From: an uncultured Anaerolineae bacterium
GTDB taxonomy: Bacteria > Chloroflexota > Anaerolineae > VGOG01
Assembly (NCBI GenBank): GCA_964592085.1
Contig: CAZQDO010000004.1
Location: 1-33,266 of the forward strand
Reading direction: 5' to 3'
Length of the DNA: 33,266 nucleotides
The notes beneath the pieces were generated by a model. That model had not been told where the DNA came from. It saw nothing but the letters and a program-made list of their open reading frames with translations, and did not search any database. Position 1 is the first letter of the stretch. Each line of letters opens with the position of its first letter. Shown here in pieces: positions 14,135-33,266 of the stretch. A program made the position numbers and the translations under genes.

Positions 14135-14995
14135 ATGCGTGACGAGCAATCAGAAGCAGAGACCTACCAGCCGGTTTTTGATGACCGTTTCAGTTGGCGG
14201 TCCATCAGGCAGAGGCCCAAGCGCAAAGGCCTGATCCTGGCCACCGCGACACTCGTAGGCATCATTCTACTTGCGGCATGTGCAGTTTACGCTGTGGGGT
14301 CTCTGAGTCCTTATGCTTTCGCTTGCAGTCGGGACAACCGAGACGAGGCAATTTGCTTTGTCTTCTTCCGACAGTCTTTGCCTCCAGCGTGCCCGCCAGA
14401 TTGTCATGCAGCCGACCTCAGCGAGGCTAACCTGAGCGGTGTTGAGCTCAATAAGGCCGATTTAAGCGCAGCCATCCTGCGCAGAGCCGAGCTGCGCGAG
14501 GCCAGACTGATCAAGGCCGATCTGAGCGGTGCCGATTTGAGTCGGGCAGACCTGCGTCGAGCCAACCTTTTGGCCGCCTACCTGCCCGAGGCCAATCTGA
14601 AAAGGGCCGATCTCACCAGGGCTGACCTGCGTATAGCCAACCTGGAAAAGGCCGATCTGAGCCTGGCTGACCTGTTCGAGGCCGACCTGAGTGCAACCAA
14701 TCTGCGCTGGGCCAACCTGGTGAGGGCTGATCTGGCCGGGGCGGACTTGCGCGAGGCCATGCTCTTCGAGGCCGATCTGCACGAGGCCGATTTGAGCGGA
14801 GCCAGTCTCTATCAGACCTTCCTGCGCAGGGCTGATCTGAGCGGGGCCGTTCTGGAAGGAGCCGACCTGCGCCTGGCTGACCTGCGCGAGGCCAACCTGA
14901 GCGGGGCCAACCTCAACGGAGCGTGGTATAACGATACGACCCTGTGGCCAGAGGGTTTTGACCCCGCCCAGGAGGGCACAGTTTTCCAATACTGA
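14135..14995 (+). CDS. Membrane-anchored pentapeptide repeat protein
   Basis: N-terminal cytoplasmic tail and one TM (GLILATATLVGIILLAACAVYAV), a Cys-containing linker, then about 35 A(D/N)LxX pentapeptide repeats (ADLSEANLSGVELNKADLSAAILRRAELREARL...). Confidence 0.9.
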   Translation: MRDEQSEAETYQPVFDDRFSWRSIRQRPKRKGLILATATLVGIILLAACAVYAVGSLSPYAFACSRDNRDEAICFVFFRQSLPPACPPDCHAADLSEANLSGVELNKADLSAAILRRAELREARLIKADLSGADLSRADLRRANLLAAYLPEANLKRADLTRADLRIANLEKADLSLADLFEADLSATNLRWANLVRADLAGADLREAMLFEADLHEADLSGASLYQTFLRRADLSGAVLEGADLRLADLREANLSGANLNGAWYNDTTLWPEGFDPAQEGTVFQY

Positions 14996-15020
14996 TCGAG
15001 GAGCTGAAAGGAGAGTTTTG

Positions 15021-16349
15021 ATGCCCAAAATCACCCTGATCGGCGCCGGCAGCGTCGTCTTCACCCGCAATCTGAGCAGCGACATCCTGCTGACGCCAGC
15101 GCTACAGGAGAGCACCATCGCCTTGATGGACATTGACCCTGAGCGATTGACCCAGGCTCAGAATTTGGTGCAGGCGATTATTGACCAGCGTGGGTTAGAG
15201 GCCCAGGTGGAAGCTACCACCGACCGGCGGGAGGCTGTGCGAGATGCGGATTACGTGATCACCACCTTCCAGCAGGGTGGGCTGGATGCCTACGCCCTGG
15301 ATATTGAGATCCCCCAACGGTACGGCGTGGAGCAATGCGTGGGCGACACGCTGGGGCCGGGCGGTGTCTTCCGAGGATTGCGCACCATCCCGGTGCTGAT
15401 TGACCTGTGCCAGGACATGGATGACCTCGCGCCGGACGCGCTGCTGCTCAACTACGTCAATCCGATGGCGGCCAACTGCTGGGCCGTGGACGTGGCCACC
15501 GGTCGCCCTCACGTGGGCCTGTGCCACAGCGTGCAGGGCACCAGCGAGATGCTGGCCCAGTGGATCGGCGTGCCCTACGACGAAGTGGTCTACCTCTGCG
15601 CTGGCATCAACCACCAGGCCTGGTTTCTGGAATTCCGCCGGGACAAAGAGGACCTCTACCCGCTGATCTGGGAAGCCATTGAGCGGCCGGAGGTTTACGC
15701 CCAGGAGCCGGTGCGTATCGAGCTGATGAAATACTTCGGCCACTTCGTCACCGAATCCAGCGGCCACGCCAGCGAGTACCTGCCCTACTTCCGTAAGAAC
15801 GCCCAGATGGTGAACGACGACCTGGTGCCGCGTTTCACGGACAACGTCAACCACTGGTTCGACTTTGGCCGCACGGGTGGCTATCTGCGCCACTGCATCA
15901 ACGCTTTTGCGAAGGCCCAGAAAGAATATCAGGAACTACTGGAAGGCGTCAAGGATCTGCCCACCGAGCGCACGCACGAGTACAGTTCTTACATCATTGA
16001 GGCGATGGAGACCAACCAAGCGGTGCGCATCAACGGCAACGTGCCCAACTGGGGCTTGATTGACAATCTGCCCCAGGGGTGCTGTGTGGAAGTGCCGTGC
16101 CTGGTGGACGGCAACGGTGTTCAGCCCACAGCCGTTGGCGCGCTGCCCACCCAACTGGCTGCCCTCAACCGCACCAACGTCAACGTGCAGGAGCTCATCG
16201 TCGAGGCTGCTCTGACCGGTGACACGGAGGCGGTTTACCATGCTGTCATGCTCGACCCACTGACCGCCGCTGTGTGTACCCTGCCCCAGATCCGCTCCAT
16301 GGTGGATGAACTGTTGGCGGCGCAGAGCCAGTGGTTGCCGCAGTTCTAG
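15021..16349 (+). CDS. Glycoside hydrolase family 4 (alpha-glucosidase/alpha-galactosidase type), paralogue 1
   Basis: N-terminal NAD-binding MPKITLIGAGSVVFT, metal/catalytic motifs GLCHSVQGT and CAGINHQAW, VTESSGHASEY. ATG at 15021 after GAAAGGAG. Confidence 0.9.
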   Translation: MPKITLIGAGSVVFTRNLSSDILLTPALQESTIALMDIDPERLTQAQNLVQAIIDQRGLEAQVEATTDRREAVRDADYVITTFQQGGLDAYALDIEIPQRYGVEQCVGDTLGPGGVFRGLRTIPVLIDLCQDMDDLAPDALLLNYVNPMAANCWAVDVATGRPHVGLCHSVQGTSEMLAQWIGVPYDEVVYLCAGINHQAWFLEFRRDKEDLYPLIWEAIERPEVYAQEPVRIELMKYFGHFVTESSGHASEYLPYFRKNAQMVNDDLVPRFTDNVNHWFDFGRTGGYLRHCINAFAKAQKEYQELLEGVKDLPTERTHEYSSYIIEAMETNQAVRINGNVPNWGLIDNLPQGCCVEVPCLVDGNGVQPTAVGALPTQLAALNRTNVNVQELIVEAALTGDTEAVYHAVMLDPLTAAVCTLPQIRSMVDELLAAQSQWLPQF

Positions 16350-16352
16350 TAG

Positions 16353-16480
16353 GGCTGGCGACCGAGGTCGCGCCTGTAGGGCCTTTGGCCGGGCATCGGC
16401 CTCCGCCGACGCAGGCCCGACCGCGTAGGCGGTCGACCGGCGTGGATACGCCCTACCAGGCGCGGTTTCAACCGCCAGCC
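16353..16480. repeat. Long imperfect GC-rich palindrome (REP-like / structured intergenic RNA) between GH4 paralogues 1 and 2
   Basis: GGCTGGCG (16353-16360) pairs with CGCCAGCC (16473-16480). GCGCCTGTAGGGC (16370-16382) pairs with GCCCTACCAGGCGC (16450-16463), leaving a 1-nt bulge. Inner sub-hairpins include CCGCGTAGGCGG and GGTCGACC. Confidence 0.55.
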
Positions 16481-16519
16481 TGAGCTGACGAAAAACTCAA
16501 ATCAAGAGGAGTCTCTTTG

Positions 16520-17836
16520 ATGACTAAAATCGCCTTCATCGGCGCAGGAAGCTTGGAATTCACTCGTAAACTGGCCAGGGACCTCATGACCTTCCCCCTG
16601 TTGCAAGACGCCACGCTGGCCTTGATGGACATCAACGCCGAACGCCTGGATTTCGCTCAGAGGTCTGTCCAGAAGATTGTGGAGTTGGGCAACTATCCGG
16701 CCACAGTGGAGGCAACCACGGACCGGGCGGAGGCCCTGAAGGGTGCCGATGCCGTGCTGGTCACCATCCTGGCCGGGGGGACGGACGTGTGGCGTCACGA
16801 CATCGAGATCCCCAAGAAATATGGGGTGGACATCAACATCGGCGATACCCGGGGCCCATCAGGTATCTTCCGAGCGCTGCGGACCATCCCGGTGATGCTG
16901 GACATCGCCCATGACATGGAGCGCTATTGCCCGCGCGCCACCATGCTCAACTATACCAACCCTATGGCCATGCTCTGTCGCGCCATGCAGCGGGAGACCA
17001 GTATCCGCCTCACCGGGCTGTGCCACAGTGTCCAGGGCACAGCAATGATGCTGGCTCGCTGGATCGGTGCGCCTATGGAAGAGATCACCTATACCTGCGC
17101 CGGTATCAATCACATGGCCTGGTACCTGAAGTTTGAGTGGAATGGCAAAGATGCGTACCCCCTCATCCGCAAGGCCATTACGGAGGATCCAGAGATTTAT
17201 AACGAGGAGATCGTGCGCAACGAGATGTTCCTCCACCTCGATTATTACGTGACCGAGTCCAGCGGACACAACTCCGAGTACAACTGGTGGTTCCGCAAGC
17301 GGCCCGATCTGATCGAGAAGTACTGCACCCACGGCACCGGTTGGAATCCCGGCGAGCACGCCTACATCCTCACGGAATATCAGAAGCGCGAGGACACCTG
17401 GCGTGACGAGGCAAAAAAGTGGTTCGCCGACGACACGCCCATTTCGCTGGAGCGGGGGCACGAATACGCGGCCTACATCGTCAACGCACTGATGGGGGGT
17501 GAACCCTTCGAGTTCAATGGCAACGTGCCCAACACGGGTCTGGTCACCAACCTGCCTGAGAACGCCTGCGTGGAAGTGCCGGTTTGGGCCAGTCGCAAGG
17601 GGTTAAGCCCCGTGCAAGTGGGCGCACTGCCGCCCCAATGCGCAGTTCTCACCAACCTGAGTTCCACACTTGAGGAGATGGCAGTCGAGGCCGCTCTCAC
17701 TGGCGACACCCGGCTGGTCTTCCAGGCCATCGCTTTCGATCCGTTGACGGCCTCTGTCCTCTCGCTGGCCGAGATTAAGCAAATGGTCAACGAAATGTTC
17801 CAGCAAAACCGGGACCACCTGCCTCAATTTCAGTGA
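16520..17836 (+). CDS. Glycoside hydrolase family 4, paralogue 2
   Basis: [45 protein letters not shown] used the ATG at 16520; the ORF track starts at the TTG at 16517. Confidence 0.9.
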
Positions 17837-17870
17837 TCAGTGATTGCCTGAGAGGAGAAATTAGAGAACC

Positions 17871-19268
17871 ATGCCCAAGATCACCTTCATCGGAGCTGGC
17901 AGCACCGTTTTCGCCAAGCGTCTGCTGGTTGACATCCTGAGCTTTCCTGAGCTGGCTAACTCCACCATCAGTCTGCACGACATTGATGAGAAACGCCTGC
18001 GCACCTCAGAGGTCGTGGCCCGCAAATTAGCCCAGGCCCTGGACGCTCACCCCACCATCGAAGCCACTACTGACCGCCGGGCAGCTCTGGATGGCGCGGA
18101 TTATGCCATCAGCATGTTCCAGGTGGCGGGTTATGAGCCGGGCACGGTGATTGACTTCGAGGTTCCCAGGAAATACGGCCTGCGTCAGACGATAGCCGAC
18201 ACCCTGGGCATTGGTGGCATCCTGCGTGCCCTGCGCACCATCCCCGCCCTGCTGGAGATGACCCAGGACATGGAGGCACTGTGCCCAGGCGCCACTTTCC
18301 TGAACTACGTCAACCCGATGGCCATGAACTGCTGGGCCATCAGCCGGGCCAGCAAAGTCAAGACGGTGGGGTTGTGTCACAGCGTCCAGGGCACGGCGGC
18401 ACAACTGGCCTACGACATCGGCGTGCCGCTAGAGGAAATCAACTACCTGTGCGCGGGCATCAATCACATGGCCTTCTACCTGCGCTTCGAGCGCAAGACG
18501 GAGGACGGCGTCGAGGACCTCTACCCGCGCATCCGTCAGGTAGTAGAAGAGGGGCGGGTGCCCGACTGGAACCGGGTGCGCTACGAGATACTCACCCGCC
18601 TGGGCTACTTCGTCACCGAGTCCAGCGAGCACTTCGCCGAATACGTGCCCTGGTTCATCAAGCGGGATCGCCCAGACCTGCTCGAGCGATTCAACGTTCC
18701 GCTGGATGAATACATTCGGCGCTGCGAAGCTCAAATTGGCCTGTGGGAGGTTATGCAGGAGAGTCTGGAGGACCCCGACATCTCCATTGCAGAGGTCGCG
18801 TCTGAGATGTTGGAGAGCGCTCGCAAGGCATTGGAGAGCACGGTCATGCCGGCCCATTTCATTGAAGAGATATTTGAGATGAGGATGAGCGGCGAATACG
18901 CCCCGCTGATTATCCACAGCATGGAGAGCGGCACACCCCGCGTGGTCTACGGCAATGTGCCCAACCGTGGTCTGATTGACAACTTGCCCCCAGGCTGTAT
19001 CGTGGAAGTTCCGTGCGTGGTGGACAAGAACGGCGTACAACCCACCCGCATCGGTGCCCTGCCGCCGCACCTGGCCGCGCTGATGCAGACCAACATCAAC
19101 GTGCAGGCATTGACGGTGGAAGCGGCCCTGACGCACAAACGAGGGCACATCTACCACGCCGCCATGCTAGACCCTCACACCGCCGCCGAACTGGACCTGG
19201 ATCAGATCTGGAATCTGGTGGACGACCTGATCGAGGCGCACGGCGACTGGTTGCCGACCTATCGGTGA
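17871..19268 (+). CDS. Glycoside hydrolase family 4, paralogue 3
   Basis: [52 protein letters not shown] lies upstream. Confidence 0.9.
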   Translation: MPKITFIGAGSTVFAKRLLVDILSFPELANSTISLHDIDEKRLRTSEVVARKLAQALDAHPTIEATTDRRAALDGADYAISMFQVAGYEPGTVIDFEVPRKYGLRQTIADTLGIGGILRALRTIPALLEMTQDMEALCPGATFLNYVNPMAMNCWAISRASKVKTVGLCHSVQGTAAQLAYDIGVPLEEINYLCAGINHMAFYLRFERKTEDGVEDLYPRIRQVVEEGRVPDWNRVRYEILTRLGYFVTESSEHFAEYVPWFIKRDRPDLLERFNVPLDEYIRRCEAQIGLWEVMQESLEDPDISIAEVASEMLESARKALESTVMPAHFIEEIFEMRMSGEYAPLIIHSMESGTPRVVYGNVPNRGLIDNLPPGCIVEVPCVVDKNGVQPTRIGALPPHLAALMQTNINVQALTVEAALTHKRGHIYHAAMLDPHTAAELDLDQIWNLVDDLIEAHGDWLPTYR

Positions 19269-21668: not shown

Positions 21669-23069
21669 TTAGTCTGCTTGGCTCACAGCAAGCAGTCTTC
21701 GCTTGGCTATTTCGCAGTAGTTTCTGTCAATCTCGACCCCGATTCCTTCCCTGCTTGTCTCAAGACAGGCGATGAGGGTTGACCCGCTTCCGAGAAAAGG
21801 ATCGAGCACTGTATCCCCTACAAATGTGAACAGCTTTATGCATCTCCGTGGCAGCTCTACGGGAAACGGGGCCGGATGTCCCACCCGCTTCCTGCTCTCT
21901 CCACTGAAGTTCCACACCCCATTGGTCCACTCCATGAACTCTTCTCTGGTGATATCGGATTGTCTGCTCCCACCCGCTTTTTTCCACTGCTGCTTGTAAA
22001 GAACAACGATCACTTCCACCGGTGCGATCACGTAAGGGGCTGAGGCGCTGAGCCAGGAGCCCCACGCCGTGCGCCTGGAGATGTTCTGCTCGTTCCAGAT
22101 GATGGTGGAATGATATTTCCAGCCAACCTGCTTGGCAATGGTGGTGATGTCGGCGCAGACGCTTTGTTGGCCGCCTTTGTTCTTGTCCAACGGGATGTTG
22201 AGACAGAACCGGCCGTCGTCTTTTGCCAGCTCCAGACACCTGGCCAGCCACTCCCTGGTAAACTCCAGGTACTCTTCATAAGAAATGTCATCGTCATAAG
22301 AGCCGTATTTGATGTCCACGTTGTAAGGGGGAGAGGTTACGATGAGGTCAATGCTGTTTTTCTCCACGCACGCCGTGGTTAGAAAATCGTCGTGGTAGAT
22401 CAACACCGGATCTTTACGAAAGCAGGGATGGCCTTTTCGCGGAGACGCCATCGTATTCCCCGAAGATTTCGGCCATTCATCCCAAGCAATGGCCTTGAGC
22501 TTTTCCGTCTCAATCAGGGTTATTCTGTCCGGTCGCCCCGGCCTGCTATAGACCTTGTATCTGGCAGCTTTTGCCAAATGTACTGTGGTGTTCAGGTCAA
22601 CCAACTGCTCTACCAATTCGATCAGGTCGTCACGCTTTACAACAACCAGTGCATCCTTCTTCTCGAAAGCGATCAGCTCCGCTTTTCCGCCGTATAGCCA
22701 GCCACGGTCATTCTCCCTCACGCCATGTAGCTCTATCCACATCCATTCGTCCTGGACATGAGAATCAAGGCGACTCAACCGCTTCATGCCCTTCACGTCA
22801 ACCCTGTATCTTTCTGCCCCTTTCTCGATCAGAAGGTCCCAGTGGTCATGGACGTTGGCGTAGCTTGAGGCCGCCGTTACCTTCCACCCCTTTTCAGCGG
22901 CGATTCGGGCAAAAACGGTTTCTGCCCTCTGCCCTATTTCGAGACAATCTCTCTTGTCGTGCTTGTTGCGTTTGTCGTGCATGGCATAACCTGTTCGAAA
23001 ATAGCCCGCACTTCGGCGGGCTCTGGGGGAGACGATCCATATATCGCTTGGAAATTTGGCAAGCCCCAC
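21669..23069 (-). CDS. Fusion protein: N-terminal PD-(D/E)xK-like module + beta-class N4/N6 DNA methyltransferase
   Basis: The C-terminal half has motif IV TSPPY (22323-22334) before motif I DPFLGSGST (21777-21803), plus HPAPFPVELP, matching the N6_N4_Mtase family. The N-terminal ~200 aa has E50...HDHWD78...D91-V-K93. The start is either ATG 23069 or ATG 22982 (MHDKRNKHDKRD). GC is clearly lower than in the flanks. Confidence 0.8.
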   Translation of the reverse strand: MGLAKFPSDIWIVSPRARRSAGYFRTGYAMHDKRNKHDKRDCLEIGQRAETVFARIAAEKGWKVTAASSYANVHDHWDLLIEKGAERYRVDVKGMKRLSRLDSHVQDEWMWIELHGVRENDRGWLYGGKAELIAFEKKDALVVVKRDDLIELVEQLVDLNTTVHLAKAARYKVYSRPGRPDRITLIETEKLKAIAWDEWPKSSGNTMASPRKGHPCFRKDPVLIYHDDFLTTACVEKNSIDLIVTSPPYNVDIKYGSYDDDISYEEYLEFTREWLARCLELAKDDGRFCLNIPLDKNKGGQQSVCADITTIAKQVGWKYHSTIIWNEQNISRRTAWGSWLSASAPYVIAPVEVIVVLYKQQWKKAGGSRQSDITREEFMEWTNGVWNFSGESRKRVGHPAPFPVELPRRCIKLFTFVGDTVLDPFLGSGSTLIACLETSREGIGVEIDRNYCEIAKRRLLAVSQAD

Positions 23070-23073
23070 TTGC

Positions 23074-23700
23074 CTACTTGATCACCAGCACCTCATCTAC
23101 GGCCACCCTGAAGCCGGCCAACACCTCCGAACGAGCATCCTCGCCTGCAGCCCACTTACCCAGCAGTTCGTAAGCTCCCTCGCGGAGGGTGAACACCTCG
23201 ACTGTCCGTCCATAGGGATCCACGATCCAATACTCCCTCACCCCGGCTTGCGCGTATTCCACCGGCTTCTCCAGGCGATCCGTGCGCCGGGTGCTGGGAG
23301 AGAGTACCTCCACCACGAGATCCGGCGGGCCATAGGCCTGCTCACCGATGCGATCGCTGTGTTCCCTGGCCACAAAGAGAATATCCGGCTCACGAATCTT
23401 GCCAGGCCACAGACGCACCGGCAGCGGGCCTATTTGAACGAGACCTAGATCTCGTTCTTCGACAAAAGCTCTCAGCCTGGTGGCTAGTTCGAATACGATC
23501 AGTTGATGGGTGTGGGTTGGATGAAGGGGCATGACCAGTTCTCCTTCTGACAGCTCGACAAAACGGTTTGTCTCCGGCAAGATGAAATAATCCGCCTCCG
23601 TCCACTGCCCCCGAGGCGGCCACAACTGGGCCACTTCAACCGTCAGTTCCAACGGTTGAATAGCTGCTTCCGCCATGCTGCCAGATGTAGTAGCTCTCAT
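23074..23700 (-). CDS. Uma2 family endonuclease (DUF820, PD-(D/E)xK)
   Basis: Hallmarks are WTEADYFILPE...VELSEGELV, EPDILFV, PPDLVVEVLSPSTRRTDRLEKPVEYAQAGVREYWIVDP. AAGGTG lies upstream of the ATG at 23700. Confidence 0.88.
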   Translation of the reverse strand: MRATTSGSMAEAAIQPLELTVEVAQLWPPRGQWTEADYFILPETNRFVELSEGELVMPLHPTHTHQLIVFELATRLRAFVEERDLGLVQIGPLPVRLWPGKIREPDILFVAREHSDRIGEQAYGPPDLVVEVLSPSTRRTDRLEKPVEYAQAGVREYWIVDPYGRTVEVFTLREGAYELLGKWAAGEDARSEVLAGFRVAVDEVLVIK

Positions 23701-30381: not shown

Positions 30382-33266
30382 TTATATCACACAACTCCCC
30401 GAAAACACAAACTGCTTCCCAAGGGCATTATGGGCAAAGGTAGTAGCGACTTCAGTCGCTTTTGCGGCAGAAAACTGCGACGATTTGAGAAGGCCGCGTT
30501 GATCGTTCGTCAGTCCGCCGACCAACAACCAACGGGACACTGCCTCCTGCGCGATGGCATCGAGCTGGGTTTGCATCAGGCTGCCAGGGTCGCCGTGCGT
30601 GGCTTCGCCTCCAGCCGCAACCAGTGGAATCGTGATGTTCGGTAGCGTGGGTTGCACGTTGGACAGGTTGATCGTGCCCGATGTGCTCACTGTGGGAGGA
30701 TCGGTGGCCGGGTCTCCGCCCCCGCCGGTGTTGTTGTTGTCATCAAGCACACCCTGAACGGTCCCGGACGACGATCCGTTTCGGAAGAGATTGAATGTTC
30801 CATTGGAACGGGTGAATCCGTAGCCCTCGGGAGCCGTGTTGGTCTGCAGGAACAGGTCGAGGCTGTTTCCAGCCTGGTTCTGTACCTCGACCTCAAGTGT
30901 GTTGTCGGTGGGGCTGTTGACCACATCGTGCTGAGGCAGGTTTTCGTTTTGGATGGTGAGATCCAGATTGCCGTCGTTGCGGACATTCACCAGGACGCCC
31001 TGGAACGGTGATGGGCAGTAACCGGTCGGGTCTCCAGTTCCGCAGTCACCGCCCTCGAGATCCGTCCCAGGGCCGCCGACCAGTCCGTCTGTCCAGGTGT
31101 TGTTTTCGACCAAGACGGCAGCGCTGTTGGTTCCCTCGGCCCGGATCACAAGCGCGGCGTCCCAGGGCAGTTTGAACTCGTTTCCTCGCACGATGACTTC
31201 GACGTCACCGCCGTTAAGCCCCAGGGTCAACTGCCCGAATCCACCGGCTGCGTGCATCACTTGATCGAACAAGTTATTGGAGACAATCGCCTCATAAGTG
31301 CCGCCCGCGGGATTCAACGATACACCACCTTGCGGGAAGTTAAAACTGGTGAAGTCCGGAGGCGTCGACTGAGGCGTCTTATGATCGTTGACCTCGAATG
31401 TGTTCTGCGAGATCACCACATCGATGTCGCCAGTGTGCGGGGTCGCGCCACCCCCTTGACCCAAGACCACAACCGATGCCGTCGCGTTGTCGGTGAAGGT
31501 GTTGCCGAGCGCGGGATTGGTTTCGTTGGGATCACCGATCCTGACCACGGCATCGTGTGTTCCCTCGACCTGAACGCTGATCCCCCGAATCCCGACGTTT
31601 ACCGTGCCACCTGAATCGAATGCCTTGTAGATCTGGTTGAATGTGCTCTGCTGAACGGTCATATCCAGAGTGCCGTCGCCGCTCACCGTGCCCAAATCGA
31701 GGCCCCGCCCGCCGTTCTGGAACACGCTGTTGTTGACGCTGACGATACCTGTTATGCCACGGATTCGGACCAGCCCCTCGTCTGCGTCATCTCCGCGATT
31801 GGGCACGTGAAAGCGGTTTGAGTTCTCCAGGGTGCTATTGAGGATTTCCAAGCCGTTCCAGGTCGTGGCAGAGACGCCGTCGGAGAACAGGGCACCGTTG
31901 ATGGCGTTGTCGCTGAAGCGGCGCATCGTGACATTGTCCAGAGTGAGCCCACCATCTACGCTCTGGCCATGGATGCCGTCCACCCCGCTGCGTGTGAAGA
32001 GCGGGTCGCTCGCATCGTCCGAGTCGCTGATGTCCTCAATGATCATGTTTTTGAAGGTGACGCGGCCGTCGGTATTGTTGAACGTGATGGCATCGCTGTC
32101 GGTGATGTTCTCAATGGTGCCGCCCGAACCGTCAGTGCTACCGCTACCTGTCACCATGAGCTCACCGCTGCCGGTGTCGTCGAGGATGATGGCTGGGCTG
32201 TCGGGGCTGACCGAGTCCTGATCAACGTTGATGCTCTGGAAAGTGACACCGCTGGCACCGATGGTGGTGTCGGAGATGTTGACGGCAGTGCCGCCTGTAG
32301 CGATGGTGTTGCCCGTCCCTTGCACCGTGATCGTGCCTCCTCCGGTCGCCGTGAAGCCCGCGCCGCTGGTGGTGTCAATGTCCAGCCCGCCGTTGGTGAA
32401 GTCAATGGTGCCGTCGGGATTTGTGTCGAGGATGACCGCGTCATTCGTTCCGCCGTTGATGACCTTGCTGGTTCCGCTGAAAGTGACGGTGGCCGCGTTG
32501 CCGTTGTTGATCTCCGAGACCTTGATGCCCATCCCCGTGTCGTTGATGTTACCCGACAGGGTGTAGCTGCCGCCGTTCAGTTCCTGGATGAACACCGAGC
32601 GCCCGGTGGTGTTGGTGATGTCGCCAGCGTAGACTACGGTGGCATCGCCGCCGCTGCCGTTGGCGGTGCCACCGACGTCGAAGGCCGTGCCGCTCGCAGC
32701 GGTGATGCTGCCGCCGTTCATGGTCAGCGTGCCGCTGATGAAGTCAAGCTGAATGCCCGCACCACTGCTGCTGTTGGACGAGACAGAATCGAACGTCATG
32801 CCCAGCGTCACGTTGTCGAAGTCAATGGCCACACCGTCGGTGGCGTTGATGGATTCGTCGCCCCCCGTCGCCGTGACATTGATCGTACCGCCGCCCGTGG
32901 CGATAAAGCCCGTGCCACTGGCGGTGTCAATGTCCAGCCCGCCGTCGAAGTTGACCGTGGCGCCGGCGTTGTTGGTCAGGTTGATGCCGTCGGCGGTGCT
33001 GGTATTGCCCGTCACCGCGACGTTAACGTCAATCGTTCCAGTCGAGTGACCGTTGACCTTCACGGCACTCGCTGCATTGTTTTGCGTGATGCTCCCGCCG
33101 TTGTAGCTCACGTTGCCGCTGCTGCTATCCACGTTCAGCGCCACGCCCGTGGGACTACTGATCGTCGTGTCGGCAAAGATGAACGTGCCAGCGGAGCCGT
33201 TGAGGATGTCAATCCCCGCGTCCCCACCGTTGAGGGTCACCGTGCCGTTGAAGTTGTAGGTGCCAT
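30382..33266 (-). CDS. Large parallel beta-helix repeat-containing secreted/surface protein (N-terminus beyond window end)
   Basis: The reading frame stays open to position 33266 (..GTYNFNGTVTLNGGDAG), so the GTG at 33240 in the ORF track is not the true start. The protein is G/T/N/S/D/V-rich with recurring GGxIxVxxTG and IxNNxF-type rungs. It contains an internal duplicate GGLDIDT(A/T)SG(T/A)GF(I/T)ATGGGTI(N/T)V. Confidence 0.85.
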   Translation of the reverse strand, partial: GTYNFNGTVTLNGGDAGIDILNGSAGTFIFADTTISSPTGVALNVDSSSGNVSYNGGSITQNNAASAVKVNGHSTGTIDVNVAVTGNTSTADGINLTNNAGATVNFDGGLDIDTASGTGFIATGGGTINVTATGGDESINATDGVAIDFDNVTLGMTFDSVSSNSSSGAGIQLDFISGTLTMNGGSITAASGTAFDVGGTANGSGGDATVVYAGDITNTTGRSVFIQELNGGSYTLSGNINDTGMGIKVSEINNGNAATVTFSGTSKVINGGTNDAVILDTNPDGTIDFTNGGLDIDTTSGAGFTATGGGTITVQGTGNTIATGGTAVNISDTTIGASGVTFQSINVDQDSVSPDSPAIILDDTGSGELMVTGSGSTDGSGGTIENITDSDAITFNNTDGRVTFKNMIIEDISDSDDASDPLFTRSGVDGIHGQSVDGGLTLDNVTMRRFSDNAINGALFSDGVSATTWNGLEILNSTLENSNRFHVPNRGDDADEGLVRIRGITGIVSVNNSVFQNGGRGLDLGTVSGDGTLDMTVQQSTFNQIYKAFDSGGTVNVGIRGISVQVEGTHDAVVRIGDPNETNPALGNTFTDNATASVVVLGQGGGATPHTGDIDVVISQNTFEVNDHKTPQSTPPDFTSFNFPQGGVSLNPAGGTYEAIVSNNLFDQVMHAAGGFGQLTLGLNGGDVEVIVRGNEFKLPWDAALVIRAEGTNSAAVLVENNTWTDGLVGGPGTDLEGGDCGTGDPTGYCPSPFQGVLVNVRNDGNLDLTIQNENLPQHDVVNSPTDNTLEVEVQNQAGNSLDLFLQTNTAPEGYGFTRSNGTFNLFRNGSSSGTVQGVLDDNNNTGGGGDPATDPPTVSTSGTINLSNVQPTLPNITIPLVAAGGEATHGDPGSLMQTQLDAIAQEAVSRWLLVGGLTNDQRGLLKSSQFSAAKATEVATTFAHNALGKQFVFSGSCVI

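What the first reader, a model, noticed from the sequence alone, without database searches (positions are those of the whole stretch)
21669..23069. In-frame fusion of a PD-(D/E)xK-like module to a small beta-class SPPY DNA methyltransferase
The C-terminal half has motif IV TSPPY (22323-22334) upstream of motif I DPFLGSGST (21777-21803). That is the permutation of beta-class amino-methyltransferases (N6_N4_Mtase family), and SPPY rather than DPPY is commoner among N4-cytosine enzymes. Stand-alone members usually begin about 40 aa before the (S/D)PPY motif, which is where an internal Met (aa 207, MASPRKGHP) sits. Residues ~30-206 are therefore an extra module. That module shows E50 ... D78 (HDHWD) ... 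D91-V-K93 within alternating hydrophobic strands, the pattern of a restriction-endonuclease-like core. A further ~100 aa (WIELHG...GWLYGGKAELIAFE...YKVYSRPGRPDRITLIE) follows that I cannot place. Single-chain Type IIG/IIC enzymes couple a nuclease to gamma-class methyltransferases plus a TRD. A nuclease-like head on a compact beta-class enzyme, with no TRD and no separate classical REase, is not an architecture I recognise. It could be a single-chain R-M/defence enzyme, a nuclease-derived DNA-reading domain, or a phage-type orphan methylase.
Basis: partly seen in the sequence, partly recalled or inferred. Interest (0 to 1): 0.7.

Follow-up and report, generated by a model that had tools for sequence, protein, structure and literature searches.

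The report
Restriction and methylase genes fused naturally
This gene is a natural fusion of the two halves of a bacterial restriction-modification system, a small DNA-cutting enzyme of an undescribed family and its protective DNA methylase, made by loss of one stop codon; close relatives show the same fusion arising several times.

Summary
Window 21669-23069 (-) is one open frame, and translation most likely starts at the ATG at 22982 (437 aa). Its C-terminal 260 aa are a beta-class N6_N4 DNA methyltransferase (Pfam E 1e-49; TSPPY lies upstream of DPFLGSGST). Its N-terminal 173 aa fold confidently (pLDDT 91) as a PD-(D/E)xK nuclease, and E50, D78, D91 and K93 sit where the catalytic residues belong.

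The N-module is not an unplaced domain. Elsewhere it is nearly always a separate ~173-aa gene next to this same methylase. The two genes occur in either order, in many bacterial phyla and one archaeon, and they diverge together (rho 0.86). In syntenic Anaerolineae loci one TAG and a 12-nt in-frame spacer separate them. The window has TCG at that codon. Relatives carry Ser, Tyr or Trp there, a junction deletion, or a read-through spacer, so there are at least five junction states. Both halves stay under purifying selection (dN/dS about 0.1 and 0.055).

Best reading: a Type II restriction-modification pair fused into a single chain, with a beta-class methylase, which differs from characterised Type IIC enzymes. 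Activity, recognition site and methylated base are untested. Solitary and phage homologues, and loci with extra nucleases, keep an accessory-nuclease role open.

The parts
21669..22982 (-). Fused R-M gene as most likely translated. It runs from ATG 22982 to the stop at 21669-21671 and encodes 437 aa (= P0001).
   Evidence: Homologues begin at MHDKRN.
22983..23069 (-). Open upstream extension of 29 codons from GTG 23069. It is probably not translated and is not conserved in orthologues.
   Evidence: The upstream open stretch varies between 2 and 77 codons among loci.
22464..22982 (-). Nuclease module (ORF aa 30-202). It corresponds to the stand-alone ~173-aa protein of relatives and has a PD-(D/E)xK fold with a C-terminal subdomain.
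22920..22922 (-). E50, the helix-1 glutamate of the nuclease core.
22836..22838 (-). D78 of the HWD motif. It is invariant and lies at the start of strand 2.
22791..22799 (-). D91-V-K93, the (D/E)xK motif in strand 3. K93 is invariant and position 91 is D or E throughout the family.
22461..22463 (-). Codon 203 (TCG, Ser), the former stop codon of the nuclease gene. It is TAG in L013, L018, L040 and L042.
22452..22460 (-). Remnant of the inter-gene spacer (G-N-T). It contains the Shine-Dalgarno-like GGGGA that precedes the methylase ATG.
22449..22451 (-). Met207, the original start codon of the methylase gene, retained inside the fused frame.
21672..22451 (-). Beta-class N6_N4 DNA methyltransferase module (260 aa).
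22323..22337 (-). Motif IV, TSPPY.
21777..21803 (-). Motif I, DPFLGSGST (AdoMet binding). It lies downstream of motif IV, which is the beta-class order.

Best explanation
The gene encodes a single-chain restriction-modification enzyme that arose by stop-codon loss in an ordinary two-gene Type II system.

Ancestral arrangement. This is still seen in sister Anaerolineae genomes and in other phyla. A ~173-aa restriction endonuclease of an uncharacterised PD-(D/E)xK family is followed, or preceded, by a ~260-aa beta-class amino-methyltransferase. In the Anaerolineae clade the endonuclease's TAG is followed by a 12-nt in-frame spacer carrying GGGGA, then the methylase ATG. In the window TAG has become TCG, so ribosomes read through into the methylase.

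Inferred mechanism. The N-terminal domain cleaves unmodified copies of a specific site, using E50/D78/D91/K93 and Mg2+, probably as a dimer. The C-terminal domain methylates the same site (N4-C or N6-A) and so protects the chromosome. A disordered linker of about 25 residues joins the two. Because the old GGGGA-ATG signal survives, free methylase may also be made by internal initiation.

Shown: the fold, motif conservation, gene linkage, the origin of the fusion, its recurrence, and purifying selection on both halves.
Inferred: nuclease and methylase activity, shared specificity, dimerisation, and internal initiation.
For: Domains:
- Pfam N6_N4_Mtase at E 1e-49. PADLOC Type II MTase model PDLC03353 at E 6.5e-95.
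- The AF2 model of the N-module has pLDDT 91. D78 sits at the start of strand 2 and D91-x-K93 in strand 3.
- Foldseek returns mainly PD-(D/E)xK nucleases.

Linkage to the methylase:
- About 70 close clusters of the N-module are stand-alone proteins of about 173 aa.
- In 75 of 115 loci fetched, this methylase lies within 3 kb. About 83% of metagenome loci with enough flank have it.
- Both gene orders and divergent orientation occur. Hosts include Chloroflexota, Caldithrix, Poribacteria, Ignavibacteriota, Patescibacteria, Aquificota relatives and the archaeon Methanoperedens.
- Identity of the N-module and of the methylase co-vary (Spearman 0.86, n=67).

Origin of the fusion:
- L001 has the same synteny (ABC permeases, Uma2, R, M) but two genes.
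- L013 and L018 differ from the window at the junction essentially by TAG versus TCG.

Recurrence:
- The ex-stop codon is Ser, Tyr or Trp in different fused proteins.
- L005 has a junction deletion and L019 a 40-codon read-through spacer.
- The methylase ATG is lost in P0004, L005 and L019, so there the methylase can apparently be made only as a fusion.

Selection:
- dN/dS is 0.08-0.19 for the N-module and 0.04-0.075 for the methylase among fused copies, the same as among split copies.
- All invariant nuclease residues are retained in every fused copy.

Precedent: an engineered in-frame fusion of Eco29kI R and M kept both activities, and its authors predicted natural fusions of head-to-tail pairs (PMC3039593).
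Against: - No biochemical or methylome data exist, and no similarity to any characterised restriction enzyme was found. There is no Pfam, NCBIfam or PADLOC REase hit and no PDB sequence hit.
- Some homologues lack this methylase although the fetched DNA had room for it. Some of these sit at positions conserved between loci, next to a recurring 306-aa gene or a recurring 415-aa gene.
- At least 53 of 80 phage-contig relatives (33-51% identity) have no such methylase nearby.
- In 16 loci another nuclease-like gene accompanies the pair: RE_BsaWI-like, an HNH protein, or a 345-aa NucS_C/EVE-like protein. Two of these, the HNH and the 345-aa protein, can each be the methylase's only nuclease-like neighbour elsewhere.
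- The window's fused state depends on one nucleotide in one contig.
- The full-length AF2 model was poor outside the N-module.
Confidence: 0.68

Rival explanations
1. The N-module is an accessory nuclease, not the restriction enzyme that the methylase holds in check. It would travel with methylases and other nucleases, for instance as a phage-derived or homing-type nuclease, a repair or processing nuclease, or a second effector. The fusion would simply tether it to the methylase's DNA-binding activity.
For: - The best PDB fold match is the homing endonuclease I-Ssp6803I, followed by Hjc resolvases.
- There are 118 relatives on viral contigs, mostly without this methylase, and many uncharacterised phage look-alikes.
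- Solitary copies sit in conserved chromosomal contexts.
- It co-occurs with RE_BsaWI-like, HNH and 345-aa nuclease-like genes around the same methylase.
- It is also fused to an HD_4 domain in P0192.
Against: - Among relatives of at least 43% identity, the pair with no other nuclease-like gene detected among the four searched is by far the commonest arrangement (61 of 115 loci, against 16 with an extra nuclease).
- The two genes co-diverge (rho 0.86).
- The pair moves as a unit between phyla in both gene orders.
- The window and its syntenic relatives carry no other candidate restriction gene next to the methylase except the ubiquitous Uma2 gene.
Confidence: 0.2
2. The fusion is non-functional or an artefact. 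Either it is a one-base assembly error at codon 203, or it is a neutral or slightly deleterious read-through on its way to decay, with the only working product being methylase made from the internal ATG.
For: - The window protein P0001 is known from a single contig.
- The split and fused forms differ by one base.
- The GGGGA-ATG initiation signal is retained in the window.
- The engineered Eco29kI fusion restricted phage 100-fold less well than the split system.
Against: - Fused orthologues are seen on many independent contigs and samples, with at least five different junction states.
- Three junction states have lost the methylase start codon yet keep the methylase under dN/dS of about 0.05.
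- dN/dS of the nuclease half in fused copies (mean 0.126) is like that in split copies (0.094), with dS of about 0.8-1.0, so the fusions are old and maintained.
- All catalytic residues are intact.
Confidence: 0.08
3. The N-module is a nuclease-derived, catalytically silent DNA-reading domain that gives the methylase extra specificity.
For: Such exaptations of the PD-(D/E)xK fold are known in general (own knowledge). The linker and domain order would allow it.
Against: - E50, D78, D/E91 and K93 are conserved across the family and in all fused copies.
- The same protein exists as a free-standing gene in most relatives, which a specificity domain of the methylase would not.
Confidence: 0.04

Closest known systems
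Type IIC / IIG combined restriction-modification enzymes (Eco57I, MmeI, BpuSI, BcgI-type; BtgZI as the exception)
   Same: An N-terminal PD-(D/E)xK nuclease domain and a DNA amino-methyltransferase domain lie in one polypeptide. This is the formal definition of Type IIC (PMC4081073).
   Different: - Characterised members couple the nuclease to a gamma-class (NPPY) methylase, or alpha-class in BtgZI.
- They share one specificity module between both activities, cut at a distance, and are 900-1300 aa long.
- Here the methylase is beta-class (TSPPY before FxGxG) and the protein is 437 aa.
- Each half derives from a self-sufficient protein that presumably has its own DNA recognition.
RM.Eco29kI, the engineered fusion of the Eco29kI R and M genes (Mokrishcheva et al. 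2011, PMC3039593)
   Same: A head-to-tail Type II R and M pair is joined in frame by removing the stop, in R-then-M order. Both activities were retained experimentally. The authors predicted that natural Type IIC enzymes could arise this way.
   Different: That fusion was made in the laboratory from a GIY-YIG nuclease and a C5-cytosine methylase. This one is natural and recurrent, and it joins a PD-(D/E)xK nuclease to a beta-class amino-methylase. Its activities are untested.
Beta-class N6/N4 methyltransferases with solved structures: TTHA0409 (2zie), 8urk, an N4C methyltransferase (8s9m/8s9n), M.RsrI, M.PvuII, CcrM
   Same: They have the same Pfam family and motif order. The best PDB sequence match is TTHA0409 (E 8e-26), which also has TSPPY.
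   Different: All of these are stand-alone methylases, or carry other C-terminal domains. None has an N-terminal nuclease. Identity is low, so specificity cannot be transferred.
Small PD-(D/E)xK nucleases: I-Ssp6803I, archaeal Hjc, the SPARDA nuclease subunit (Pfam pPIWI_RE_REase)
   Same: They share the core alpha-beta-beta-beta-alpha-beta fold and the placement of the acidic and Lys residues (TM 0.45-0.54 over the core).
   Different: Sequence identity is 12-18%. There are no significant sequence-level hits. The module has an extra C-terminal subdomain (residues ~117-171 of the module) that those proteins lack. The genomic partner is a methylase.

Membership tests
Beta-class DNA amino-methyltransferases (Pfam N6_N4_Mtase, PF01555) | Profile match above the curated threshold | tested here: met
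   169.6 bits against a cut-off of 26.7, covering aa 240-456 and profile positions 1-220 of 221.
Beta-class DNA amino-methyltransferases (Pfam N6_N4_Mtase, PF01555) | Circular permutation: motif IV (S/D)PP(Y/F) lies N-terminal to motif I FxGxG | tested here: met
   TSPPY is at aa 245-249 and DPFLGSGST at aa 423-431.
Beta-class DNA amino-methyltransferases (Pfam N6_N4_Mtase, PF01555) | Transfers a methyl group to N4 of cytosine or N6 of adenine in a defined sequence | not testable with these tools
   TSPPY is shared with an N4C enzyme (8s9m) and with TTHA0409, a putative modification methylase; 8urk has DPPY. This is suggestive only.
PD-(D/E)xK nuclease superfamily | Alpha-beta-beta-beta-alpha-beta core fold | tested here: met
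   The AF2 model has pLDDT 91.3. The Foldseek PDB hits are mainly PD-(D/E)xK nucleases, at probability 0.9-1.0 though with modest E-values of 1e-3 or more. BFVD hits reach E 4e-10 and some are named PD(D/E)XK endonuclease.
PD-(D/E)xK nuclease superfamily | Catalytic E ... D ... (D/E)xK at the canonical structural positions, conserved in the family | tested here: met
   E50 is on helix 1, D78 before strand 2, and D91-V-K93 in strand 3. D78 and K93 are invariant, position 91 is D or E, and E50 is present in nearly all of the 31 sequences aligned.
PD-(D/E)xK nuclease superfamily | Metal-dependent phosphodiester cleavage | not testable with these tools
Type II restriction-modification system | Nuclease and methylase genes are adjacent and inherited as a unit | tested here: met
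   Adjacent in 43 of 80 metagenome loci, and within 3 kb in about 83% of those with enough flank. Both orders occur, many phyla are represented, and the two co-diverge with rho 0.86.
Type II restriction-modification system | Both enzymes recognise the same sequence, and methylation blocks cleavage | not testable with these tools
   Palindrome avoidance gives candidate sites only: CAGCTG 0 observed against 8.1 expected in the window, and 1 against 31.7 in the clade, with CTCGAG, GTCGAC and ATCGAT also depleted. The signal is not clearly shared by distant hosts.
Type IIC (combined R-M in one polypeptide) | Nuclease and methyltransferase domains lie in one chain | tested here: met
   There is no stop between the modules in the window. 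The same holds in P0002-P0007, L005, L014, L017 and L019.
Type IIC (combined R-M in one polypeptide) | Both activities are demonstrated in the single chain | not testable with these tools
   Indirect evidence only: both halves are under purifying selection in fused copies, and three junction types lack the methylase start codon.
Type IIG / classical Type IIC subgroup (Eco57I/MmeI-like) | Gamma-class (NPPY) methylase sharing one specificity module with the nuclease, in a large protein of roughly 900-1300 aa that cuts at a distance | tested here: not met
   The methylase is beta-class. The Eco57I and N6_Mtase profiles score below threshold (13.7 and 16.3 bits). The protein is 437 aa, and both halves exist as independent proteins in relatives.
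Any characterised restriction endonuclease family (REase Pfam families, PADLOC REase models, PDB sequences) | Significant sequence similarity of the N-module | tested here: not met
   Only sub-threshold pPIWI_RE_REase (18.3 bits against 26.1) and YraN hits. The profile search of the PDB found nothing relevant. Source names are 'hypothetical protein'. REBASE itself could not be searched.

The most novel reading that the evidence does not exclude
This Anaerolineae clade may preserve the birth of a new subclass of single-chain restriction-modification enzyme, caught in the act and repeated. A self-sufficient Type IIP-like nuclease of an undescribed PD-(D/E)xK family would have been fused again and again, by Ser, Tyr or Trp stop-loss, deletion and spacer read-through, to a beta-class methylase. 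Selection would maintain the fused forms as bifunctional enzymes, for example because 1:1 coupling tames a long-resident chromosomal restriction enzyme.

A further possibility is that this very conserved methylase family is a hub serving up to three unrelated nucleases in one locus: the 173-aa module, an HNH protein, and a 345-aa NucS_C/EVE-like protein.
Probability: 0.3. Interest if true: 0.6.

Novelty: new variant of a known kind. Interest (0 to 1): 0.45.

Why it matters
Origin of combined enzymes. Gene fusion has long been proposed as the origin of combined Type IIC restriction-modification enzymes, and it was modelled in the laboratory with Eco29kI. Natural intermediates have been lacking. 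This locus and its relatives provide a graded series in one syntenic chromosomal position:
- split with a long spacer;
- split by a single in-frame TAG;
- fused with the methylase start retained;
- fused with that start lost.
Both halves are under purifying selection throughout. That makes the question directly testable by cloning sister alleles that differ by one codon.

An unannotated nuclease family. The work also puts a function-linked context on a large family: 1188 representative clusters in the 50% library, with no Pfam or NCBIfam model. The family is common in uncultured Chloroflexota and in phages.

Practical use. A 437-aa single-chain enzyme with a beta-class methylase would be an unusually compact R-M tool, if it is active.

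Tried and rejected
1. Recognition site from palindrome avoidance. CAGCTG is almost absent from the window and the Anaerolineae loci. CTCGAG, GTCGAC and ATCGAT are depleted as well, and distant hosts of the pair do not clearly avoid CAGCTG (7 observed against 12.4 expected). No site can be assigned. The PvuII-like idea is also not backed by similarity: M.PvuII matches only weakly (E 4e-6) and R.PvuII is absent from the fold hits.

2. Full-length AF2 model. The aim was to see how the domains are arranged. The methylase half was modelled poorly (mean pLDDT 60.7) because the alignment is shallow and nearly invariant. Only the low-confidence linker (residues 172-196 of the 437-aa protein) was taken from it.

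3. Phylogeny of fused against split copies. The neighbour-joining trees are star-like and unresolved. Independence of the fusions is therefore argued from the distinct junction sequences, not from the tree.

4. Function of the phage relatives. PHROG scans of their neighbours gave nothing useful.

5. Phage and plasmid collections. There was one weak phage hit, and four Vibrio megaplasmid hits annotated 'hypothetical protein' with no methylase annotated nearby.

6. The D. radiodurans m4C DraI system (PMC10855626). It was looked at as a possible relative, but no sequence comparison was possible and no link was established.

7. Phage-type orphan methylase. Rejected because the window neighbourhood is FtsK, an ABC transporter, MFS and GH4 genes, with no mobile or phage genes.
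Full report
**1. The observation**

Window 21669-23069 on the minus strand is a single open frame of 466 codons from a GTG.
- SPPY at 22323-22334;
- DPFLGSGST at 21777-21803;
- Met207 at 22449-22451;
- E50, D78, D91 and K93 as stated.

Pfam N6_N4_Mtase covers aa 240-456 at E 1.3e-49. NCBIfam gives only partial, sub-threshold matches to YhdJ-like and CcrM-like adenine methylases. A PADLOC Type II methylase model matches at E 6.5e-95. The closest solved structures are beta-class enzymes: TTHA0409, 8urk, an N4C methyltransferase, CcrM, RsrI, MboIIA and PvuII.

The real start is almost certainly the ATG at 22982, giving 437 aa. Orthologues and the gene caller begin at MHDKRN, and the upstream 29 codons are not conserved.

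**2. What the N-terminal module is**

By sequence it is nearly invisible. The only hits are sub-threshold: pPIWI_RE_REase (E 0.0025) and YraN (E 0.056). A family profile finds nothing relevant among PDB sequences.

By structure it is clear. I aligned 31 homologues and predicted the structure from that alignment. The AlphaFold model has pLDDT 91.3 and pTM 0.86. Its PDB neighbours are mainly PD-(D/E)xK nucleases: I-Ssp6803I, the SPARDA nuclease subunit, Hjc, D212, RecU and EcoRV. Among viral predicted structures it matches many uncharacterised phage proteins, some of them named PD(D/E)XK endonuclease.

D78 and K93 are invariant, and position 91 is always D or E.

The '~100 aa I cannot place' is the C-terminal half of the same protein. 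It forms a helix-and-strand subdomain, residues ~117-171 of the module.

**3. The decisive finding: elsewhere it is a separate gene**

A search with the module alone returns about 70 clusters. Nearly all are stand-alone proteins of about 173 aa with no Pfam domain, named 'hypothetical protein'. The exhaustive library holds 1188 representatives.

In an Anaerolineales MAG the locus is syntenic with the window: ABC-transporter permeases, Uma2, the 173-aa gene, then a 259-aa N6_N4 methylase. There, however, the two are separate genes.

The pair also occurs in other arrangements:
- nuclease then methylase, 17 nt apart, in Caldithrix;
- methylase then nuclease in a prophage-like region, in Poribacteria, and in the archaeon Methanoperedens;
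- divergently oriented in a Desulfurobacteriaceae MAG and a Patescibacteria MAG.

Across 115 fetched loci carrying a homologue of at least 43% identity, the counts are as follows:

| Content of the locus | Loci |
|---|---|
| Module plus this methylase only | 61 |
| Module, methylase (not detected in two short loci) and a further nuclease-like gene | 16 |
| Module alone (many at contig ends) | 38 |

Identity of the module and identity of the methylase co-vary (Spearman 0.86, n=67). This is the signature of a two-gene Type II restriction-modification cassette that moves horizontally as a unit.

**4. How the fusion arose**

Junction sequences of ten Anaerolineae-clade loci give a series.

| Loci | State | Junction |
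|---|---|---|
| L013, L018 (also L040, L042) | split | ...CCGAAATCC TAG GGGAATAGCCTG ATG...: one stop, a 12-nt in-frame spacer carrying a Shine-Dalgarno-like GGGGA, then the methylase ATG |
| Window | fused | AAA TCT TCG GGG AAT ACG ATG, so the stop is now Ser203 |
| L014 | fused | TCG at the ex-stop codon |
| L017 | fused | TCA at the ex-stop codon |
| P0003 | fused | Tyr at the ex-stop codon |
| P0007 | fused | Trp at the ex-stop codon |
| L005 / P0005 (seen on 17 contigs) | fused | a deletion removes the spacer and the methylase ATG |
| L019, L047 | fused | read-through of a 40-codon low-complexity spacer, which in L016 ends in a stop |
| L001, L012, L038 | split | a 158-nt palindromic repeat element lies in the spacer |

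Ser, Tyr and Trp codons are each one substitution away from TAG. There are therefore at least five junction states that give a fusion. Neighbour-joining trees are too star-like to polarise the events. Because every distant relative is split, repeated stop loss is the parsimonious reading.

Among the non-redundant fetched junctions of at least 74% identity, 5 are fused and 13 split. The window and the fused database proteins P0002-P0007 come on top of that.

**5. Is the fused protein functional?**

- All invariant nuclease residues are intact in every fused copy.
- Pairwise dN/dS (NG86) for the nuclease half averages 0.126 among fused copies and 0.094 among split copies.
- For the methylase core the values are 0.058 and 0.054, with dS of about 0.65-1.0.
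- The fusions are therefore old, and both halves remain constrained.
- In P0004 (ATG changed to ACG), L005 and L019 the methylase start codon is gone. There the methylase can apparently be made only as part of the fusion, yet it is as conserved as elsewhere.
- In the window the GGGGA-ATG signal survives, so additional free methylase from internal initiation is possible. This is inference.
- The full-length AF2 model keeps the nuclease domain confident, shows a low-confidence linker (residues 172-196 of the 437-aa protein), and is otherwise uninformative.

**6. Most likely mechanism**

I read this as a Type II restriction-modification system expressed as a single chain:
- The N-terminal PD-(D/E)xK domain, probably as a dimer, cuts unmodified target sites.
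- The C-terminal beta-class domain methylates the same sites.
- TSPPY is shared with an N4C enzyme and with TTHA0409, and differs from the DPPY of 8urk. This leans toward N4-cytosine but proves nothing.

The laboratory fusion RM.Eco29kI kept 80% of its methylase activity and a third of its nuclease activity, and it restricted phage 100-fold less well. Its authors predicted natural fusions of head-to-tail pairs (PMC3039593). A plausible advantage here is obligatory 1:1 co-expression and attenuation of a long-resident chromosomal nuclease. The neighbourhood is housekeeping genes (FtsK, ABC transporter, MFS, GH4) with no mobile genes.

**7. What weakens this reading**

The wider family is not exclusively linked to a methylase.
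- Solitary copies recur at conserved chromosomal positions: beside a recurring 306-aa gene in L079-L091, and beside a recurring 415-aa gene in L065 and L070. No methylase motif is nearby.
- There are 118 relatives on viral contigs at 33-51% identity, and at least 53 of the 80 kept have room for this methylase but lack it.
- One relative is fused to an HD_4 domain.

In 16 loci another nuclease-like gene accompanies the module. Three kinds were found:
- RE_BsaWI-like (L025, L029);
- an HNH protein of about 195 aa;
- a 345-aa protein with weak NucS_C and EVE hits.

The HNH protein is 64% identical to the sole nuclease-like partner of an HTH-fused copy of this methylase in L037. The 345-aa protein is the sole nuclease-like neighbour of this methylase in L035.

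So the same very conserved methylase (65-89% identity across phyla) works with several alternative nucleases, sometimes stacked together. The 173-aa module could therefore be an accessory rather than the restricting enzyme. I rate that rival at about 0.2. The module-plus-methylase pair, with none of the other nuclease genes searched for, is by far the commonest state, and it is the state of the window.

**8. Recognition site**

Palindrome statistics:

| Site | Window, observed / expected | Anaerolineae loci (121 kb), observed / expected |
|---|---|---|
| CAGCTG | 0 / 8.1 | 1 / 31.7 |
| CTCGAG | 3 / 19.6 | 7 / 51.9 |
| GTCGAC | 3 / 13.8 | 3 / 16.0 |
| ATCGAT | not among the most depleted | 1 / 17.4 |

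Distant hosts of the pair do not clearly avoid CAGCTG (7 against 12.4). These are leads only.

**9. Comparison with what is known**

Formally, a protein with both domains is Type IIC. The review by Pingoud et al. states that most Type IIC enzymes join an N-terminal PD-D/ExK domain to a gamma-class methylase, with BtgZI (alpha-class) as the noted exception (PMC4081073).

This protein fails the features of the Eco57I/MmeI-like group:
- it has a beta-class methylase;
- it is 437 aa long;
- its two halves were once self-sufficient proteins, each presumably with its own recognition.

The nuclease belongs to no described restriction-enzyme family that I could test. REBASE was not available.

**10. 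Verdict**

This is a natural, recurrent stop-loss fusion of an ordinary but uncharacterised Type II restriction-modification pair. That makes it a new variant of a known kind.

Interest is moderate (0.45). It is not a new defence principle. It does offer a rare natural series of split-to-fused intermediates, and a first functional context for a large unannotated nuclease family.

Noticed in passing
L001:5523-5689 (also L012 and L038; second copy of the core at L001:9622-9637): A ~158-nt element with long inverted repeats (core GTGGACYAGGGTCCAC) sits exactly in the spacer between the nuclease and methylase genes of some split loci. It is flanked by GGGGA(n)A repeats. Its core recurs elsewhere on the same contig, so it looks like a small REP/MITE-like mobile repeat.
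   Followed up: partly
Whole window (33,266 bp) and Anaerolineae loci L001-L019: Several 6-bp palindromes are strongly avoided. In the window: CAGCTG 0 observed against 8.1 expected, CTCGAG 3 against 19.6, GTCGAC 3 against 13.8. Across 121 kb of the clade: CAGCTG 1 against 31.7 and ATCGAT 1 against 17.4. This suggests several long-resident restriction systems. None could be tied to this gene.
   Followed up: partly
L055, L056, L062, L067, L071, L078, L009/L072, L068, L025, L029: The same conserved methylase is flanked in some loci by two or three different nuclease-like genes at once. Besides the 173-aa module these are an HNH protein of about 195 aa, a 345-aa protein with weak NucS_C and EVE hits, or an RE_BsaWI-like protein. 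The HNH protein (L037) and the 345-aa protein (L035) are each its only nuclease-like neighbour elsewhere.
   Followed up: partly
Proteins P0025-P0120; L037:4001-5014: Many close homologues of the methylase (75-82% identity) carry an N-terminal HTH_17/MerR-type helix-turn-helix of about 80 aa instead of the nuclease. This is a different recurrent N-terminal fusion on the same methylase core, possibly autoregulatory.
   Followed up: no
L079, L082, L084, L086, L089, L091; L023, L028, L065, L070: Solitary homologues of the nuclease module, without this methylase, sit at positions conserved between loci. One set is beside a recurring 306-aa gene. Another set precedes a 415-aa ORF in L065/L070, and L023/L028 share a different conserved set of flanking genes. 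The L028 copy is truncated to 109 aa. L065 has a 408-aa ORF that joins the module to a region with a weak IS200-like Y1_Tnp hit.
   Followed up: partly
L118-L197 (IMG/VR contigs); LR756504.1: 118 relatives of the module (33-51% identity) lie on viral contigs, mostly among small genes of unknown function and without the methylase. The family appears to be common in phages, where its role is unknown.
   Followed up: partly
Protein P0192 (365 aa): A relative of the module (51% identity) forms the C-terminal half of a protein whose N-terminal half is an HD_4 (HD phosphohydrolase) domain.
   Followed up: no
Window 23074-23700 (-): A Uma2-family gene (Pfam 'putative restriction endonuclease', E 3e-38) lies immediately upstream, 5 nt from the GTG of the long ORF. 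A Uma2 gene occupies the same position in the syntenic loci L001-L003 and lies further upstream in L005/L006.
   Followed up: partly
Window 14958-19268 (+): Three tandem paralogous family-4 glycoside hydrolase genes (463, 439 and 465 aa) follow a pentapeptide-repeat protein gene (14135-14995).
   Followed up: no
Window 30382-33240 (-): A 952-aa ORF next to ftsK has no Pfam hit at E <= 1e-5.
   Followed up: no
NZ_CP015514.1 673580-674798 and NZ_CP062152.1 344446-345661 (L033, L034): In ~0.9-Mb Vibrio replicons, a 33-38% identical homologue of the module overlaps a downstream ~238-aa hypothetical gene. The region also holds Sir2-family, 3'-5' exonuclease and GIY-YIG nuclease genes, so it may be a defence island.
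   Followed up: no
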